DNA from: an uncultured Alphaproteobacteria bacterium
Lineage (GTDB): Bacteria; Pseudomonadota; Alphaproteobacteria; Rhizobiales; Hyphomicrobiaceae
Direction: 5' to 3'
Assembly: GCA_963740475.1 (NCBI GenBank)
Contig: CAVUEM010000012.1
Span: 23,615 to 87,614 of the forward strand
DNA: 64,000 nucleotides
Below are positions 57,575 through 64,000 of this stretch, in pieces. The notes under the pieces were generated by a model that worked only from the letters and a program-made list of their open reading frames with translations, was not told the DNA's origin and did no database searches. The position numbers and the translations under genes are program-made. How positions within the stretch are numbered: the first letter of the stretch is position 1; every line of letters starts with the position of its first letter.

Positions 57575-59824
57575 TCAGAACGCGGGACCGAAGCGGTTCG
57601 AGCGCGGGAAGCCCTTCGGTGCAAGGCGTCCCGACTGGGCGCGGACGCCAATCCAGTCGCCGAGCTCGCCCCAGGGCAGTGTGAAGAGCCGCCCCGCCGA
57701 ATCGAGCCACGTCAGCCCGTCCGCTTTACGGAAGATACGCGCGTCCTCGAGCCCGCCGTCCTTGAAGCGCTGCATGATCACGCCCCTGCCGCGGCCCATC
57801 TCGGGGAGCTCGTCCAAGGCAAATACGAGCATCTTCCGGTTCTCGCCGATTGAGGCGACATGATCGCCGTCGACGGGGACGCAGAGACGCGCCTCCTCGG
57901 GCGGCGTGACGTTGAGCACCTGCTTCCCCTTGCGGGTCGACGCCACGATCTCGTCCTCGGGCACGATGAAGCCGTAGCCCGCCGTCGAGGCGACGAGGAG
58001 GCGGCGCCCCGGCACGTAGACGAAGCACGCGACGAAGTCGTTGTTCTCCTCGAGATCGACCATGAGGCGCACCGGCTCGCCGTGGCCGCGCCCGCCGGGA
58101 AGCTGGCTCGCCTCGAGGGTGAAGAAGCGGCCGTTGGTCGCGAATAGGATGAGCTTGTCGGTGGTCTGCGCGCGGATCGCGTGCTTGAGACTATCGCCCT
58201 GCTTGAAGTCGAGCTTCGAGACGTCGTCCTGGTGGCCGCGCAGCGCCCGGATCCAGCCCTTTTCCGACAGGATGACGGTAATCGGCTCGCGCTCGATCAG
58301 CACCTGGTCGAGGTCGGCTTCGACCGCAGGCGCGTCGGCAAACGAGCTGCGCCGCGCCCCGAGCTCGGTCTTCTTCGAATAGCGGTCGCGGACCGCCCGC
58401 ACCTCGTCGGCAATGCGCACCCACTGCAGCTCGTCCGACTTCAGGAGCTGCTTTATTTCGCGACGCTCCTTGGACAGCCGGTCGTGCTCGGCGCGGATCT
58501 CGACCTCCTCGAGCTTGGACAATGATTTGAGCCGGAGATTGAGGATCGCGTCGGCCTGCACTTCGGTGAGCTTGAACTTGGCGATCAGCTTCGCCTTGGG
58601 GTCGTCCTCGTGGCGGACGATGCGGATCACCTCGTCGAGATTGAGGTAGGCGATGAGATAGCCGTCGAGCACCTCGAGCCGGTGCTCGATCTTCCTCAAG
58701 CGGTACTGGGAGCGGCGCACGAGCACGTCGACGCGATGCTCGAGCCACTGGCGCAATACGTCGCGCAACGAGAGCACGTTCGGGATCTGCCCCGCCGAAA
58801 GGACGTTCATATTGAGGCCGAAGCGCACCTCGAGCTCGGTCAGGCGATAGAGGCTCTCCATCAGCAGCACGGGATCGACCGCGCGGCTCTTGGGCTCGAG
58901 CACGAGGCGGATCTCCTCCGCGCTCTCGTCGCGCACGTCCGCGAGCAGCGGCACCTTCTTTTCCGTGAGTAATTCCGCGATGCGCTCGACCAGCTTCGCC
59001 TTCTGCACCTGATAGGGAATCTCGGTGACGACAATCTGCCAGGTGCCGCGGCCCGCCTCCTCCTTCTCCCACTTGGCGCGCAGACGGAACCCGCCGCGCC
59101 CCGTCTTGTAGGCCTCGAGGATGTCGGCCCGCGGCTCGACGATCACGCCCCCGGTCGGGAAGTCCGGCCCCGGGATCATCTCGACCAGCTTCTCGATGGT
59201 CGCGTTCGGGTGCTTGATCAGATGGAGCAGCGCGTTCGCCAGCTCCTCGACGTTGTGGGGGGGAATGTTGGTCGCCATGCCGACCGCGATCCCCGACGAC
59301 CCGTTGGCGAGGAGGTTCGGGAACGCCGCCGGCAGCACGATCGGCTCGCTGTTGGTCGCGTCGTAGGTCGGGCGGAAATCGACCGTCTCCTCGTCGATGC
59401 CGTCGAGGAGGGCGCCGGCGACGTCCGTGAGCCGGCTTTCGGTGTAGCGCATGGCGGCGGCGTTATCGCCGTCGATGTTGCCGAAGTTGCCCTGGCCGTC
59501 GACGAGAGGATAGCGAACGGCGAAACTCTGCGCGAGGCGCACGAGCGCGTCGTAGATCGCCTGGTCGCCGTGGGGGTGAAAGTTGCCCATCACCTCGCCG
59601 ACGATCTTGGCGCATTTCTTGTAGCCGGCCTCGGGGTCGAGCTTCAATTCGCGCATGGCGTAGAGGATGCGCCGGTGCACGGGCTTCAACCCATCGCGCA
59701 CATCGGGGAGCGCGCGGTGCATGATGGTCGAGAGCGCGTAGGCGAGGTAGCGCTCCTCGAGCGCGTCCTTCAAGTTCACGGGCTCGATCGGGCCGGGGCC
59801 CGGCAGAATCGGTTTCTGGCTCAT
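57575..59824 (-). CDS. parC: DNA topoisomerase IV subunit A
   Basis: [52 protein letters not shown] (catalytic Tyr), and a short CTD without a GyrA box. Confidence 0.97.
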
Positions 59825-59856
59825 GGGGATGGGCTAGCGCGGAAGGCGGCGCCGAA

Positions 59857-59877
59857 CAAGTCCGGGTTGTGGATGCA
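59857..59877. repeat. Direct repeat R1 (CAAGTCCGGGTTGTGGATGCA) in the parC upstream region
   Basis: 20/21 identical to 62778-62798. The 16-nt core also occurs at 60448-60463 with one mismatch. Confidence 0.85.
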
Positions 59878-60588: not shown

Positions 60589-61500
60589 ATGGTCCTGCGT
60601 CATGTCGCAATTCGGCTCCTCCTCACGGCGATCCTCTTCTCGTTGTCGGTCGAGGTGCAGATGGCGCGTGCGGCCGAGGAGGCGCCGACCGCCCCAGCCC
60701 CGGCACCTGACGTGGCAGCTTTCAACAGCGCGAAGGCGCTCGGCACCGTGGAGGCCTGGAATGCCTTCCTCGCCAGCTACCCGACCGGCTTTTACGCCGA
60801 CTTGGCGCGCGCCTATCTGAGAACGCTGAAGGACCGGCCGACCGCTGCGACGCCGGCTGCCCCGGTCACCTACATCGCCCAGGAGCTCTCGTGCACGGAG
60901 CGGAGCAAGGTGCGCTCGCTCAACTCCGACGCTCCGACGAAGGTGACCTTCGTCAACGCTTCGCAAAGCTACCGCTCCATCCAGTGGATCGACTTCGAGG
61001 GCAAGCTCAAGGACTACGGCACGCTGAGCCCGGGCGACCAAATAACGCTCGACACGTACGTCACGCACCCCTGGCTCATCGGCACCCGGGCGAAGGAATG
61101 TCTGCATATCTTCATGCCCGACGCTGGGCCGGCGACCGTCGAACTCGCCCGGCTCGCGGACGCTGAGGAGGAGAGCCGGCCCGCGACGAAAGAGAAGCAG
61201 CCCGAAGAGCCGGCGCAGAAGAAGAGCACGCTCGTCTGCGCCAAGAACTACAAGCTTCGCAATGGAGAGTGCGTGCTCGTCCAGAACTGCGGAGCGAACG
61301 CCACGCGCAGCCCCGAGGGCGATTGCTACTGCAACAAGAATTACATGATGAGCAACGGCAAGTGCATCTGGAAGCAGGACAAGAAAGGCTTCGAGGTCGC
61401 CCCGTGGAAGAAGCAGGGCTGCTCGACGTGGCAGAAGCAGTGCAGCCAGGGAAGCAAAAAGGCCTGCGCGAAGTACGAGACAACCTGCCAGGTGAATTGA
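60589..61500 (+). CDS. Secreted modular protein: helical YPxG module + VHL beta-like domain + Cys-rich C-terminus
   Basis: Signal peptide, AWNAFLASYPTGFYADLAR, RSLNS..P..VTFVN.S...WIDFEG..Y.TL.PG..TY.THPW, and ten Cys in the C-terminal ~90 aa. Confidence 0.8.
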   Translation: MVLRHVAIRLLLTAILFSLSVEVQMARAAEEAPTAPAPAPDVAAFNSAKALGTVEAWNAFLASYPTGFYADLARAYLRTLKDRPTAATPAAPVTYIAQELSCTERSKVRSLNSDAPTKVTFVNASQSYRSIQWIDFEGKLKDYGTLSPGDQITLDTYVTHPWLIGTRAKECLHIFMPDAGPATVELARLADAEEESRPATKEKQPEEPAQKKSTLVCAKNYKLRNGECVLVQNCGANATRSPEGDCYCNKNYMMSNGKCIWKQDKKGFEVAPWKKQGCSTWQKQCSQGSKKACAKYETTCQVN

Positions 61501-61505
61501 CGTAG

Positions 61506-62486
61506 TCAGAGCGGCCGCGAGCTCGCGGGCGTCTCGGTGATGGCGCGCCTGATCGAGGCGAGAGGCGCTTGCGCATCGAACGTCACGCCATGGTCGTCCT
61601 TGGAGACACCCAGATCCCGCCAGAGCGCGTCGAGGTCGGGTGCAAAAGGCGCATCGCGCATTTTCTCGTAGAGGCCGGCCAGCACGGCTTCCCCCGTTGC
61701 ATTGTCGGCCACGGCGAGGCTGCGCTCGATCGACCAGTCCTGCTCGTTGGTGCCGCCTGAGGCGAGGATGGCGCGCAGCCCCTGCTGCAAGCCGACCCGG
61801 TTGCCCGTTTGCTTGCGGATCTCGACATCGGCGAGGAGACAGAAGATGGCGCCGCCCCAATACGTACGCCCCCACGTCGGCGTGTTGTCGAGCCCGCGGT
61901 CGCCGGCTTGGGGCAAGCCTTGCGGCATGTCGCGCACGAAGCTGCTCCAGATTTTCTCCTCCGTAAGGTCGCCCGCCTGAACGCGCGCGATGGACTCGAC
62001 ATAGACGGCGAGCCCTTCCGCCAGCCAGAGATGCGAGCGCGCCAAGTCCGGGAGCGCCAAGTGCACCATCTCGTGCACCGCCATCCAGTCTCGCACGAGA
62101 TCGCCCTCGGTCGTCTCGCGGCCGACCAGGAGACGGATCGCGGCGCCGCGATAGCCGAACGCTTGGCCCCCCTGCACGCCTCGCCCCGGAACCGGAACGA
62201 CGAGGAGCCTCGCCGATCGCACGGGGAACTCCCCGTAGTAGACGGAGACGGCTTTCGCCGATCGCTCGAGCCAGCTCAAAATGGATTGGCGCGGGAGAGC
62301 GAACTCGCCGGGAGCAAACCCGACGTTGAGCACGCCGCCCCCGACCGTGACCGGCGTGGTCGCGAGCTTGTCGAACGCGTCGTAGGGCATGCGCTCGCCC
62401 CTGAACGAGGGCGTGGCGGACGCCGGGCACGAGAGAGACGTCGCAAGGAGCAATGCCGACAAAAAAAACTGAGCGAATCTGACCAT
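61506..62486 (-). CDS. Secreted gluzincin-type (M1/M61-like) metallopeptidase
   Basis: Signal peptide, HEMVH zinc motif, downstream WLAEGLAVY third ligand, and RTYWGGA motif. Confidence 0.8.
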   Translation of the reverse strand: MVRFAQFFLSALLLATSLSCPASATPSFRGERMPYDAFDKLATTPVTVGGGVLNVGFAPGEFALPRQSILSWLERSAKAVSVYYGEFPVRSARLLVVPVPGRGVQGGQAFGYRGAAIRLLVGRETTEGDLVRDWMAVHEMVHLALPDLARSHLWLAEGLAVYVESIARVQAGDLTEEKIWSSFVRDMPQGLPQAGDRGLDNTPTWGRTYWGGAIFCLLADVEIRKQTGNRVGLQQGLRAILASGGTNEQDWSIERSLAVADNATGEAVLAGLYEKMRDAPFAPDLDALWRDLGVSKDDHGVTFDAQAPLASIRRAITETPASSRPL

Positions 62487-62556: not shown

Positions 62557-62798
62557 GCGCATGGGGATCGAGAGCGCGATGGCGGGGGTGCGCGCGCAAA
62601 ACCTCGGTATGCTGAAGTCGAGCCAACCGCATCGGCGCGGCCATGTAGGCCGGCGGGGGTGGGGCTGGCCCAGGTGCGCTGCTCGAGCGCGTGCTTGCCT
62701 TCGCGCGATCGATCGGGCGGAGCAGCAGAACCGCCCGCTGGCTCATCGGGTTGGGCTAGGACGGGCGGGGCCCCGGGCAAGCCCGGGTTGTGGATGCA
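62557..62798 (-). pseudogene. Decayed duplicate of the parC promoter region and first ~37 codons
   Basis: 62677-62798 aligns with 59751-59877 (about 95/127 by hand) and 62557-62593 with 59717-59753 (28/37). Residual peptides MSQ, PID, KHALEQR and ALS..M correspond to MSQ, PIE, KDALEER and ALSTIM. Confidence 0.8.
62778..62798. repeat. Direct repeat R3 (CAAGCCCGGGTTGTGGATGCA)
   Basis: 20/21 identical to R1. GC content drops shortly after it. Confidence 0.85.
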
Positions 62799-62887
62799 TT
62801 CCCAAACCGGGCACGTCCCGCTATGCAGTTGTCGCAAATACGGATAAATCCAACTGCGATAAACCCCCAATCCTTTAAGGGCGTTTC

Positions 62888-64000
62888 ATGGCCAATTCTT
62901 ATAAAATGCGTATCTCCCGCCTAACAGTGGATAAGTTGGGAGTTAGATTATATGACAAAGTCTCGGCTGTAATTGCTGAGCTCGTATCTAATAGCTACGA
63001 TGCGGACGCTACAAACGTCTATATAGAAGCTCCTCTTGGCGAGTACCTGGCCAATAAGACTGGTGGAAAAATCCATGATAGGGACCTCGCGATTCATGTT
63101 GTTGATAACGGCATAGGGATGACCCCAGAGGAGGTCAATGACTTCTATCTGCGCGTCGGCGCGGAACGCCGCACCGAGACAAAGAGAGGTCGTGGTGATC
63201 TATCCCCAAAGTTTAGACGACGCGTGATGGGGAGAAAGGGCGTGGGAAAGCTTGCACCATTTGGGATTTGTCAGACCATCGAGGTGCTATCATCGGGCGG
63301 CGAACCGATCACTCGCAAGCGACGAGATGGCTCTAAGGAAAAGGGATACCTCACAGCCCACATAATCCTCGACCGCGCGAAGATACTCCAAGATACGGAT
63401 TTCGACTATAAACCCACGCTCGGTTCGCTAGATGACAGCCTACAAAAAACGGCGGGCACCCGCATCACTCTTCGCGGTTTTTCATATAGAAAAGTTCCGG
63501 ATGCTAGCACCTTCGCCCGGCAATTGGCTCAAAGGTTCGGCCTTTCCTCCGCAAATTGGCGAATTCGCGCTGCGGGACACCGCCAAAACGCTCCACGATT
63601 TCGAGTATGAAACTCTCGTGGGTGCTCTAAGTATTCCTCTTATTCCGGAAACAAAATTGGAATTCGTGGGCCCCGTCGGCCCTAATTTGGTTTGTGCTAC
63701 AGCTCAGGGGTTCTCTGCTAAAAGCTTCGATGGCACGTTGATAGCGGATCTTGAGGCAGGATTTTTTCACGAGAATTCGTTCTATCCAATAACAGGATGG
63801 ATGGGTTATTCCAAGGAGCCGTTAAAAGACGACCTGATGGCCGGCATTCGAGTTTATTGTCGAGGGAAAATCGCCGCCCAAACAATGCTTTTCAATAAGG
63901 GGGCAGGCTTTCATGGCGAGCACAGTATTCGATCGTATCTCGTCGGGGAGGTGCATGCCGACTGGCTCGACGCGGACGAAGATTTGATTCTCACTGATAG
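62888..64000 (+). CDS. GHKL (MutL/MORC-like) ATPase, partial, runs off the window (apparent +1 frameshift ~63566)
   Basis: AELVSNSYDADA, VVDNGIGM, GRKGVGKLAPF and GTRITL motifs. The +1 frame stays open to the window end (GIRVYCRGK, YLVGEVHADWLD). Visibly lower GC with A/T-ending codons. Confidence 0.85.

What the first reader, a model, noticed from the sequence alone, without database searches (positions are those of the whole stretch)
60910..61077. Secreted bacterial protein with a von Hippel-Lindau beta-domain retaining the hydroxyproline pocket
Seen: VRSLNSDAPTKVTFVNASQSYRSIQWIDFEGKLKDYGTLSPGDQITLDTYVTHPWL aligns without gaps to human pVHL 63-118 as I recall it (about 21/56 identical). The equivalents of W88, Y98, Y112, H115 and W117 are conserved and S111 is Thr. 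The domain lies between a helical YPxG module and a ten-Cys EGF-like tail, behind a signal peptide. Established: those pVHL residues bind hydroxyproline of HIF-alpha. Bacterial VHL-like domains are listed in domain databases, but I know of no function for them. Inference: an extracellular Hyp-recognition module (plant extensins/AGPs, algal walls or collagen), possibly working with the convergent secreted peptidase.
Basis: partly seen in the sequence, partly recalled or inferred. Interest (0 to 1): 0.68.

Follow-up and report, generated by a model that had tools for sequence, protein, structure and literature searches.

The report
Exported bacterial VHL beta-domain protein
A Hyphomicrobium gene encodes an exported, disulfide-rich protein whose middle part is a true relative of the hydroxyproline-gripping domain of the human VHL tumour suppressor with the pocket residues kept; such bacterial domains are already listed in databases, nobody knows what they bind, and the suggested link to the neighbouring peptidase does not hold.

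Summary
Window 60589-61500 (+) encodes a 303-aa protein. Residues 108-163 align without gaps to human pVHL 63-118 with 21/56 identities. Pfam VHL scores E 4.8e-11, and an AlphaFold model matches only pVHL structures in the top 50 (Foldseek E ~3e-8).

W88, Y98, Y112, H115 and W117 are kept and S111 is Thr. In 308 bacterial VHL-like domains these pocket positions are among the most conserved columns.

The protein has a Sec-type signal peptide, 12 Cys, no pVHL alpha domain, an unclassified three-helix N-module and an unclassified 10-Cys tail. "EGF-like" was not confirmed.

The family is under purifying selection and concentrated in Hyphomicrobiaceae: 46/151 genomes against 7/401 across the phylum. 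There the VHL domain is shuffled with other envelope modules.

The peptidase link is rejected. The peptidase is absent from 80 related loci, from the closest homologue's contig and from all same-genus genomes. VHL presence does not track prolyl-hydroxylase-type genes or hydroxyproline catabolism genes.

Best reading: an extracytoplasmic, non-catalytic binding protein. A hydroxyproline-type ligand is plausible but unproven. It is a new member of a database-listed family of unknown function.

The parts
60589..61500 (+). Gene for the 303-aa exported VHL beta-domain protein (stop at 61498-61500)
   Evidence: ORF and translation. The start is supported by the alignment of homologues. The family is under purifying selection, median dN/dS 0.15.
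60589..60672 (+). Sec-type signal peptide, residues 1-28 (two Arg, a hydrophobic core, A-R-A then A)
   Evidence: Read from the sequence. Homologues carry equivalent hydrophobic N-termini ending in A-x-A. The segment is a predicted helix, residues 3-18. No signal-peptide predictor was run.
60700..60840 (+). N-module, residues 38-84: three helices with consensus AFxxAKELGTxEAWxAFLxxYPxGFxADLARAYL
   Evidence: pLDDT 94-97, helices 40-51, 54-63 and 68-82. Invariant residues. The same module heads other exported Hyphomicrobiaceae proteins with different middle domains. No Pfam or PDB sequence match.
60889..61149 (+). VHL beta-domain, residues 101-187: seven predicted strands, with Cys102 and Cys171 as a probable disulfide
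   Evidence: Pfam PF01847 E 4.8e-11. pVHL match in PDB sequences, E 3e-5. The top 50 Foldseek hits are all pVHL, E 3e-8 to 5e-7, about 90 aligned columns. Strands listed. Cys102 and Cys171 co-occur: 97 domains have both, 190 neither, 21 one only.
60985..61074 (+). Stretch holding the pocket residues W133, Y143, T156, Y157, H160 and W162 (pVHL W88, Y98, S111, Y112, H115, W117)
   Evidence: Ungapped alignment and codon check. Conservation over 308 domains: W 277/306, Y 215/306, T or S 292/305, H 269/304, W 281/303.
61150..61227 (+). Charged Glu/Lys/Pro-rich linker, residues 188-213
   Evidence: pLDDT below 50 for 192-208. Length and sequence vary among homologues.
61228..61497 (+). Ten-Cys tail, residues 214-303: three beta-hairpins and a helical hairpin, ending in the conserved CQVN
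   Evidence: All Cys are invariant or nearly so. Model pLDDT 82. No significant PDB fold match, best E 0.28. Only sub-threshold EGF_MSP1_1 and EB hits.

Best explanation
The gene encodes a non-catalytic binding protein that works outside the cytoplasm. Shown: it has a Sec-type signal peptide and 12 conserved Cys. Its middle module is a true homologue of the pVHL beta-sandwich. It lacks the pVHL alpha domain, so it cannot act as an Elongin-C/Cullin-2 adaptor. The five residues that form the hydroxyproline pocket in pVHL are kept, with Ser111 replaced by Thr, and they are among the most conserved positions across more than 300 bacterial VHL-like domains. Inferred: the pocket is the working part. 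It grips a small ring bearing a polar group, most likely a 4-hydroxyproline (or a very similar residue) within an extended peptide. The peptide-flanking contacts differ from pVHL (His110 is Asp, Arg69 is Asp). The three-helix N-module and the Cys-knotted tail are interchangeable carrier modules; in Hyphomicrobiaceae they are combined with other envelope domains and presumably position the binding domain in the periplasm or on the cell surface. The protein does not work with the neighbouring peptidase. In this lineage it is not tied to a prolyl hydroxylase or to hydroxyproline catabolism. If the ligand is Hyp, it is more likely recognised for attachment or sensing than for feeding. My confidence in the domain identity, export and binding-module role is about 0.9; in the Hyp-type ligand about 0.35-0.4. 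The stated confidence is for the whole mechanism.
For: Domain identity: Pfam VHL E 4.8e-11; ungapped pVHL alignment with 21/56 identities and 0 of 100,000 shuffles reaching that; AlphaFold model with pLDDT 86-92 in the domain; top 50 Foldseek hits all pVHL. Pocket conservation: N78, W117, S65, G93, W88, S111(T/S) and H115 are the lowest-entropy columns in 308 domains from 141 clusters. The signature W-Y-[TS]-H-W occurs in 200/308 domains, and 130/141 proteins have at least one pocket of W-[YF]-[TS]-H-W. Export: signal peptides with A-x-A sites in all aligned homologues, the co-varying Cys102/Cys171 pair, and 10 invariant tail Cys. Every other Hyphomicrobiaceae VHL protein I inspected is also predicted to be exported and is joined to LprI/DUF1311-like, SH3-like or Cys-rich modules. 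Real gene: dN/dS is 0.06-0.12 in close pairs, median 0.15. No alpha domain: only PF01847 is found.
Against: The genome has no Hyp epimerase family member, and only two PF13640 oxygenases without signal peptides. VHL presence is not associated with PF13640 (32/46 against 81/105, p 0.42) or with PF05544 (12/46 against 40/105, p 0.19). Hyphomicrobium is not known to me as a degrader of proteins (own knowledge). Co-domains such as SH3_3, OmpA, LprI and Ricin-type lectin fit a cell-wall or glycan ligand just as well. Tyr98 is the least conserved pocket residue, at 70%.
Confidence: 0.4

Rival explanations
1. The pocket binds an ordinary, non-hydroxylated segment of another envelope protein, for example a Pro-rich linker, or another residue. 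The protein is then a periplasmic scaffold or adaptor, and the Thr/His pair serves a different polar contact.
For: There is no association with prolyl-hydroxylase-type genes: 14 of 46 VHL-positive genomes have no PF13640 hit. The domain is shuffled with many protein modules, and in other bacteria with TIR, patatin and caspase effectors, as expected of a general adaptor. Mestre et al. speculated about a protein-recruiting role (PMC7736814).
Against: The very residues that hydrogen-bond the 4-OH in pVHL (Ser/Thr111 and His115; established pVHL structural knowledge) are 96% and 88% conserved. That is hard to explain if no hydroxyl-like group is read.
Confidence: 0.28
2. The domain is a carbohydrate- or peptidoglycan-binding beta-sandwich. 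The Trp/Tyr/Trp box stacks on a sugar ring, and the protein is a cell-wall associated factor.
For: Co-occurring domains include SH3_3 (3), RicinB lectin (2), OmpA, LprI and PKD among 100 relatives. SH3-like and LprI-like modules occur in Hyphomicrobiaceae VHL proteins. Aromatic boxes are typical of carbohydrate-binding modules (own knowledge).
Against: The pocket in pVHL is small and fits a five-membered ring. Few acidic or amide side chains are conserved around it. No CBM family was matched by Pfam or Foldseek.
Confidence: 0.15
3. This is the first reader's extension: the VHL protein targets the convergent secreted gluzincin-like peptidase (61506-62486, minus strand) to Hyp-rich substrates.
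For: The two genes are convergent with 5 bp between their stops, and both products have signal peptides. They lie together between two copies of a 16-nt site. Earlier unchecked scan notes report VHL-peptidase fusions in other phyla.
Against: The peptidase is absent from 80 related VHL loci within 8 kb. It is absent from all five same-genus genomes, two of which have the VHL gene. It is not the neighbour of the closest homologue at 66% identity. Same-genus orthologues sit between xseB and dxs.
Confidence: 0.03
4. The protein is a eukaryote-mimicking effector acquired from a host that interferes with HIF or ubiquitin signalling.
For: 37% identity to human pVHL over 56 residues is high for a bacterial-human pair.
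Against: There is no alpha domain or BC box. 2549 cluster representatives match in a library built from public genomes and metagenomes, some with up to 10-11 tandem repeats and most joined to domains typical of bacteria. The carriers are free-living methylotrophs from soil and water metagenome-assembled genomes. The G+C content is native-like at 62-66%.
Confidence: 0.02

Closest known systems
Human/metazoan pVHL beta domain (Pfam PF01847; PDB 1LM8, 1LQB, 4AJY, 1VCB)
   Same: The same seven-strand beta-sandwich by HMM and by predicted fold. The same pocket residues: W88, Y98, S111 (as Thr), Y112, H115 and W117. 21/56 identities without gaps.
   Different: No alpha domain, so no Elongin C/Cullin-2 coupling. 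It is exported behind a signal peptide and stapled by a Cys102-Cys171 pair. It is flanked by a bacterial N-module and a 10-Cys tail. The peptide-flanking contacts are changed (H110 to Asp, R69 to Asp). The ligand is unknown.
Bacterial 'VHL beta domain-containing proteins' as named by Pfam, NCBI and JGI annotation (e.g. Hyphomicrobium sp. MAG proteins)
   Same: This protein is a member: 196 full-length relatives at E down to 1e-131, most carrying a precomputed PF01847 hit and several named 'VHL beta domain' by their source.
   Different: Nothing beyond the domain label is known for them. This copy sits at a different locus (an insert at the parC 5' end) from the same-genus orthologues, which lie between xseB and dxs.
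Retron type X accessory protein: IHF-like domain, a transmembrane helix and a C-terminal VHL beta domain (Mestre et al. 2020, PMC7736814)
   Same: Another bacterial use of the PF01847 domain, with function stated as unknown.
   Different: There the domain is predicted to be cytoplasmic and linked to a DNA-binding domain and a retron. Here it is exported and no retron is nearby.

Membership tests
VHL beta domain (Pfam PF01847) | Significant match to the family HMM above the gathering score | tested here: met
   E 4.8e-11, 43 bits against a cut-off of 21, residues 108-164 on profile positions 1-57 of 82. The whole-genome scan gives 45.6 bits.
VHL beta domain (Pfam PF01847) | Seven-stranded beta-sandwich that superposes on the pVHL beta domain | tested here: met
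   AlphaFold2 predicts seven strands between residues 116 and 186 with pLDDT 78-92. The top 50 Foldseek PDB hits are all pVHL, E 3e-8 to 5e-7, probability 1.00, 87-98 aligned columns, rmsd 3.5-4.9 A.
VHL beta domain (Pfam PF01847) | Hydroxyproline-pocket residues W88, Y98, S111, H115, W117 | tested here: met
   W133, Y143, T156, H160 and W162 by ungapped alignment. Conserved in the bacterial family. The geometry was not measured.
VHL beta domain (Pfam PF01847) | Hydroxyproline-dependent ligand binding | not testable with these tools
   Needs binding assays or a ligand-bound structure.
pVHL-type substrate receptor of a Cullin-2 ubiquitin ligase | Alpha domain with BC-box that binds Elongin C | tested here: not met
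   No Pfam family other than PF01847 is significant. The beta domain is followed by a disordered charged linker and a Cys-rich tail.
pVHL-type substrate receptor of a Cullin-2 ubiquitin ligase | Cytosolic or nuclear location | tested here: not met
   Sec-type signal peptide and 12 conserved Cys, consistent with an oxidising compartment. This is a sequence inference, not an experiment.
EGF-like domain (the tail) | Significant match to an EGF-family HMM or fold | tested here: not met
   EGF_MSP1_1 E 0.07 (13.6 bits, cut-off 27) and EB E 0.08. Best Foldseek hit E 0.28, with EGF and TNFR-like hits only at E above 1.
Two-gene unit with the neighbouring gluzincin-like peptidase | Conserved co-occurrence of the two genes | tested here: not met
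   0 of 80 related loci, 0 of 5 same-genus genomes, and a different neighbour beside the closest homologue.

The most novel reading that the evidence does not exclude
Bacterial VHL beta domains are an old, mostly extracytoplasmic family of hydroxyproline readers. Hyphomicrobiaceae, where about 30% of genomes carry them, would use them in the envelope to read prolyl-hydroxylated proteins, their own or foreign.
Probability: 0.1. Interest if true: 0.85.

Novelty: new member of a known kind. Interest (0 to 1): 0.45.

Why it matters
A bacterial, exported, disulfide-stabilised version of the same pocket would give a small stable module for testing how old hydroxyproline reading is. It could also show whether bacteria read hydroxyproline outside the cell. 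No paper I could search assigns any function to bacterial VHL domains. The domain's presence in bacteria is already recorded in databases, however, and this copy adds no experimental handle beyond a well-defined family that includes cultured strains.

Tried and rejected
1. Peptidase partnership: rejected.

2. Dependence on an endogenous prolyl hydroxylase: PF13640 occurs in 32/46 VHL-positive and 81/105 VHL-negative family genomes, odds ratio 0.68, p 0.42. The two PF13640 proteins of this genome have no signal peptide.

3. Feeding on Hyp-rich proteins: PF05544 (proline racemase / 4-Hyp epimerase) is absent from this genome and from all six genomes of the genus. It occurs in 12/46 VHL-positive and 40/105 VHL-negative genomes.

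4. EGF identity of the tail: not confirmed.

5. Identity of the N-module: no Pfam or PDB sequence match.

6. Informative gene neighbourhood: same-genus and other Hyphomicrobium orthologues sit between housekeeping genes (a histone-deacetylase-like gene, xseB, then dxs), which says nothing about function.

7. Tail motif GFE[VI]APWKK as an internal LAP-like ligand for the pocket: dropped. The segment is modelled at pLDDT about 90 as part of the folded tail, and the same tail occurs in a relative without a VHL domain (P0116).

9. Pocket geometry: model coordinates are not exposed to the Python box, so side-chain superposition on pVHL could not be done.

Full report
**Observation.** The quoted peptide is the exact translation of 60910-61077 on the + strand. 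It lies in an ORF whose biologically sensible start is the ATG at 60589, giving 303 aa with a stop at 61498-61500. Homologues begin at the equivalent Met.

Pfam finds one significant family, PF01847 (VHL beta domain): E 4.8e-11, 43 bits against a gathering score of 21, residues 108-164. phmmer against all PDB sequences finds only human and mouse pVHL chains, E about 3e-5. The alignment has no gap over query 104-164.

With query residue = pVHL residue + 45, I count 21 identities in the 56 positions 63-118. None of 100,000 shuffles of the segment gave more than 13. W88, Y98, Y112, H115 and W117 are identical, S111 is Thr156 and H110 is Asp155.

**Structure.** An AlphaFold2 model built on 30 homologues has mean pLDDT 78, and 86-92 in the domain. 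It shows seven strands between residues 116 and 186. In a Foldseek search of the PDB the first 50 hits are all pVHL chains: E 3e-8 to 5e-7, probability 1.00, 87-98 aligned columns, rmsd 3.5-4.9 A. The beta-sandwich is therefore complete, even though the Pfam profile matches only its first 57 positions.

There is no alpha domain. After the sandwich come a disordered Glu/Lys/Pro linker and a Cys-rich tail. The protein cannot be an Elongin-C-coupled ubiquitin-ligase adaptor.

**Anatomy of the whole protein.**
- Residues 1-28 look like a Sec signal peptide: two Arg, a hydrophobic core and A-R-A before the cut. Homologues have A-x-A at the same place.
- Residues 38-84 form three confident helices with the near-invariant motif AFxxAKELGTxEAWxAFLxxYPxGFxADLARAYL.
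- Residues 101-187 are the VHL domain. It is bracketed by Cys102 and Cys171. These two Cys co-occur across 308 bacterial VHL-like domains (97 have both, 190 neither, 21 one only), as expected of a disulfide.
- Residues 214-303 carry ten invariant or near-invariant Cys and end in a conserved CQVN.
- The tail was modelled alone at pLDDT 82 as three beta-hairpins plus a helical hairpin. It has no significant PDB fold match (best E 0.28) and only sub-threshold Pfam hits to EGF_MSP1_1 and EB. "EGF-like" is a resemblance, not a classification.
- The N-module matches nothing in Pfam or in PDB sequences.

**The family.** A search of 5.8 billion proteins gives 196 relatives. Most are 300-330 aa with the same three modules, and most carry a precomputed PF01847 label. 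In one genome per species they come from Hyphomicrobium, Filomicrobium, Methyloceanibacter and Afipia-like metagenome-assembled genomes, plus a few cultured strains.

Close pairs have dN/dS of 0.06-0.12, and the median of 46 pairs is 0.15. The gene is under purifying selection.

PF01847 is found in 46 of 151 genomes of the window's family (28 of 51 genera) but in only 7 of 401 genomes drawn across the phylum, two of those from the same family. With those two removed, the enrichment gives Fisher p about 4e-23. It is found in none of 14 model genomes. Within the genus it is patchy: 3 of 6 genomes.

**Modularity.** In Hyphomicrobiaceae the same N-module heads exported proteins with other middle parts. 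These include two tandem VHL domains, a large beta-rich domain, an SH3-like domain and an LprI/DUF1311-like domain. The tails also vary, ending in CQVN, CQPNETGG, EGCHEND or RCYLP.

Other VHL proteins of the family join the domain to LprI-like modules, to an uncharacterised 'WQxxxxNDPxNKGR' domain, to SH3-like modules, or to long Pro-rich and Ala/Lys-rich repeats. Nearly all of those inspected show an N-terminal signal-like segment.

A full HMMER scan of 1.84 billion cluster representatives with residues 98-190 finds 2549 clusters at E <= 1e-3 and 411 at E <= 1e-10. Some of these proteins have up to 10-11 tandem VHL domains. Among the nearest 100, co-domains are sparse and mixed: TIR_2 (3), SH3_3 (3), Ricin-type lectin (2), patatin (2), and caspase, OmpA, LprI, PKD and CAP once each. 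The domain behaves as a portable binding module.

**Pocket conservation.** I aligned 308 domains from 141 clusters to one profile. The columns with the lowest entropy are:
- N78: 300/304
- W117: 281/303
- S65: 252/274
- G93: 285/307
- W88: 277/306
- S111: Thr 266 plus Ser 26, of 305
- H115: 269/304

Y98 is Tyr in 215/306, and Y112 is Tyr or Phe in 266/305.

The signature W-Y-[TS]-H-W is complete in 200 of 308 domains. 130 of 141 proteins have at least one pocket of the looser form W-[YF]-[TS]-H-W. In pVHL these residues form the pocket for Hyp564 of HIF-1alpha, with Ser111 and His115 hydrogen-bonding the 4-hydroxyl (established structural knowledge; not re-derived here).

Selection in bacteria therefore acts on the same pocket. 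This is the main argument that the pocket is the working part and that its ligand carries a hydroxyl-like group on a small ring. It is an inference; nothing was measured.

(a) Peptidase. The convergent gene is best read as 62486-61506 (minus strand): 326 aa, its own signal peptide, an HEMVH motif, and only weak M61 and M1 hits.
- It is absent within 8 kb of all 80 related VHL loci.
- It has no homologue at E <= 1e-10 in any of five same-genus genomes, two of which carry the VHL gene.
- The closest homologue of the VHL protein (66% identity) has an unrelated convergent neighbour.
- The same-genus orthologues (53-54% identity) lie in a housekeeping row: a histone-deacetylase-like gene, xseB, the VHL gene, then dxs.
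- In this genome xseB and dxs are adjacent with nothing between them.

The link is rejected.

(b) Endogenous hydroxylation. The prolyl-4-hydroxylase-type family PF13640 is present in 32/46 VHL-positive and 81/105 VHL-negative family genomes (p 0.42). Fourteen VHL-positive genomes have no hit. This genome's two PF13640 proteins have no signal peptide.

(c) Hydroxyproline as food. PF05544 (proline racemase / 4-Hyp epimerase) is absent from this genome and from the whole genus. It occurs in 12/46 VHL-positive and 40/105 VHL-negative genomes.

Points (b) and (c) do not exclude hydroxyproline binding. They do remove the two simplest biological contexts for it in this lineage.

**Explanation.** The best-supported reading is an exported, non-catalytic binding protein. 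Its VHL pocket is the working part, and its N-module and tail are carrier modules that place it in the envelope.

I put the domain identity and binding role at about 0.9, and a Hyp-type ligand at about 0.35-0.4. The rivals are:
- a non-hydroxylated protein partner (0.28);
- a glycan or peptidoglycan ligand, suggested by the SH3_3, OmpA, LprI and Ricin company (0.15);
- the peptidase partnership (0.03);
- host mimicry (0.02).

**Known or new.** NCBI and JGI already name relatives 'VHL beta domain(-containing protein)'. Mestre et al. 2020 describe a retron-associated bacterial VHL domain and state that the function of prokaryotic VHL beta domains is unknown (PMC7736814). One purely in-silico paper treats a Litorilituus protein (PMC9002001). 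I found no experimental work in the searchable library.

Earlier unchecked notes of this scan report many bacterial VHL domains, some fused to proline-specific peptidases near hydroxyproline catabolism genes in other phyla. I did not verify those. The analogous tests in this family were negative.

The finding is thus a well-supported new member of a database-listed domain family of unknown function. What this report adds is a Hyphomicrobiaceae-enriched three-module architecture, pocket-conservation numbers, and the removal of the peptidase idea.

**Locus note.** The gene sits in a 2.9-kb stretch (parD, a parE with an altered 3' end, the VHL gene and the peptidase). The stretch is bracketed by a roughly 135-nt direct repeat of the parC start and upstream region: 59737-59877 against 62663-62798, about 78% identity.

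A 16-nt core, CCGGGTTGTGGATKCA, occurs three times here, starting at about 59862, 60448 and 62783. Its exact 14-nt part occurs nowhere else in the genome. G+C falls to 50-58% just beyond this stretch. In five same-genus genomes, similarity to the window stops at the parC start. This copy of the VHL gene therefore arrived by insertion next to parC. It does not occupy the ancestral xseB-dxs slot.

Noticed in passing
window 59737-59877 and 62663-62798: A direct repeat of about 135 nt at roughly 78% identity. It covers the parC start codon, the first ~25 codons and the upstream region, and it brackets a 2.9-kb segment holding parD, parE, the VHL gene and the peptidase. In five same-genus genomes similarity to the window ends at the parC start. 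This looks like an insertion hotspot at the parC 5' end.
   Followed up: partly
window about 59862, 60448 and 62783: Three copies of a 16-nt core, CCGGGTTGTGGATKCA, lie within 3 kb. Its exact 14-nt part occurs only here in the 4.68-Mb genome. The middle copy lies inside the 3' end of parE, where the ParE C-terminus departs from the family pattern and the frame runs on to 60710. It may be a recombination-site core separating two cassettes.
   Followed up: partly
window 61506-62486 (-): An exported 326-aa HEMVH (gluzincin-like) peptidase with only sub-threshold M61 and M1 Pfam hits and no NCBIfam match. It is absent from all five same-genus genomes. It is an orphan accessory peptidase.
   Followed up: partly
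window 62600-64000 and beyond (L084): G+C drops from about 65% to 50-58%. The first gene there (62888-63610) has an HATPase_c_3 domain, E 7e-19. This is probably a foreign island next to the parC hotspot.
   Followed up: no
loci L069-L073, L074, L077-L078, L093-L102: Hyphomicrobiaceae have a combinatorial set of exported proteins. These share the AWxAFLxxYPxGF N-module, an uncharacterised 'WQxxxxNDPxNKGRxTARLxYGxPETD' domain, LprI-like and SH3-like modules, and at least four types of Cys-rich tail. Neither the N-module nor the CQVN tail is in Pfam.
   Followed up: partly
proteins P0123-P0131 (search of protein representatives): Giant proteins of about 2000 aa carry up to 10-11 tandem VHL beta domains. 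Other VHL domains are fused to TIR_2, patatin or caspase domains. These hint at uses of the domain in conflict systems.
   Followed up: no
genome contig C21:102308-103483 (L083 1309-2484): A 391-aa protein has a PF13640 2OG-Fe(II) oxygenase match in its C-terminal half. Its N-terminal half looks thioredoxin- or redoxin-like to my eye, but that was not tested with any tool. The substrate is unknown.
   Followed up: no
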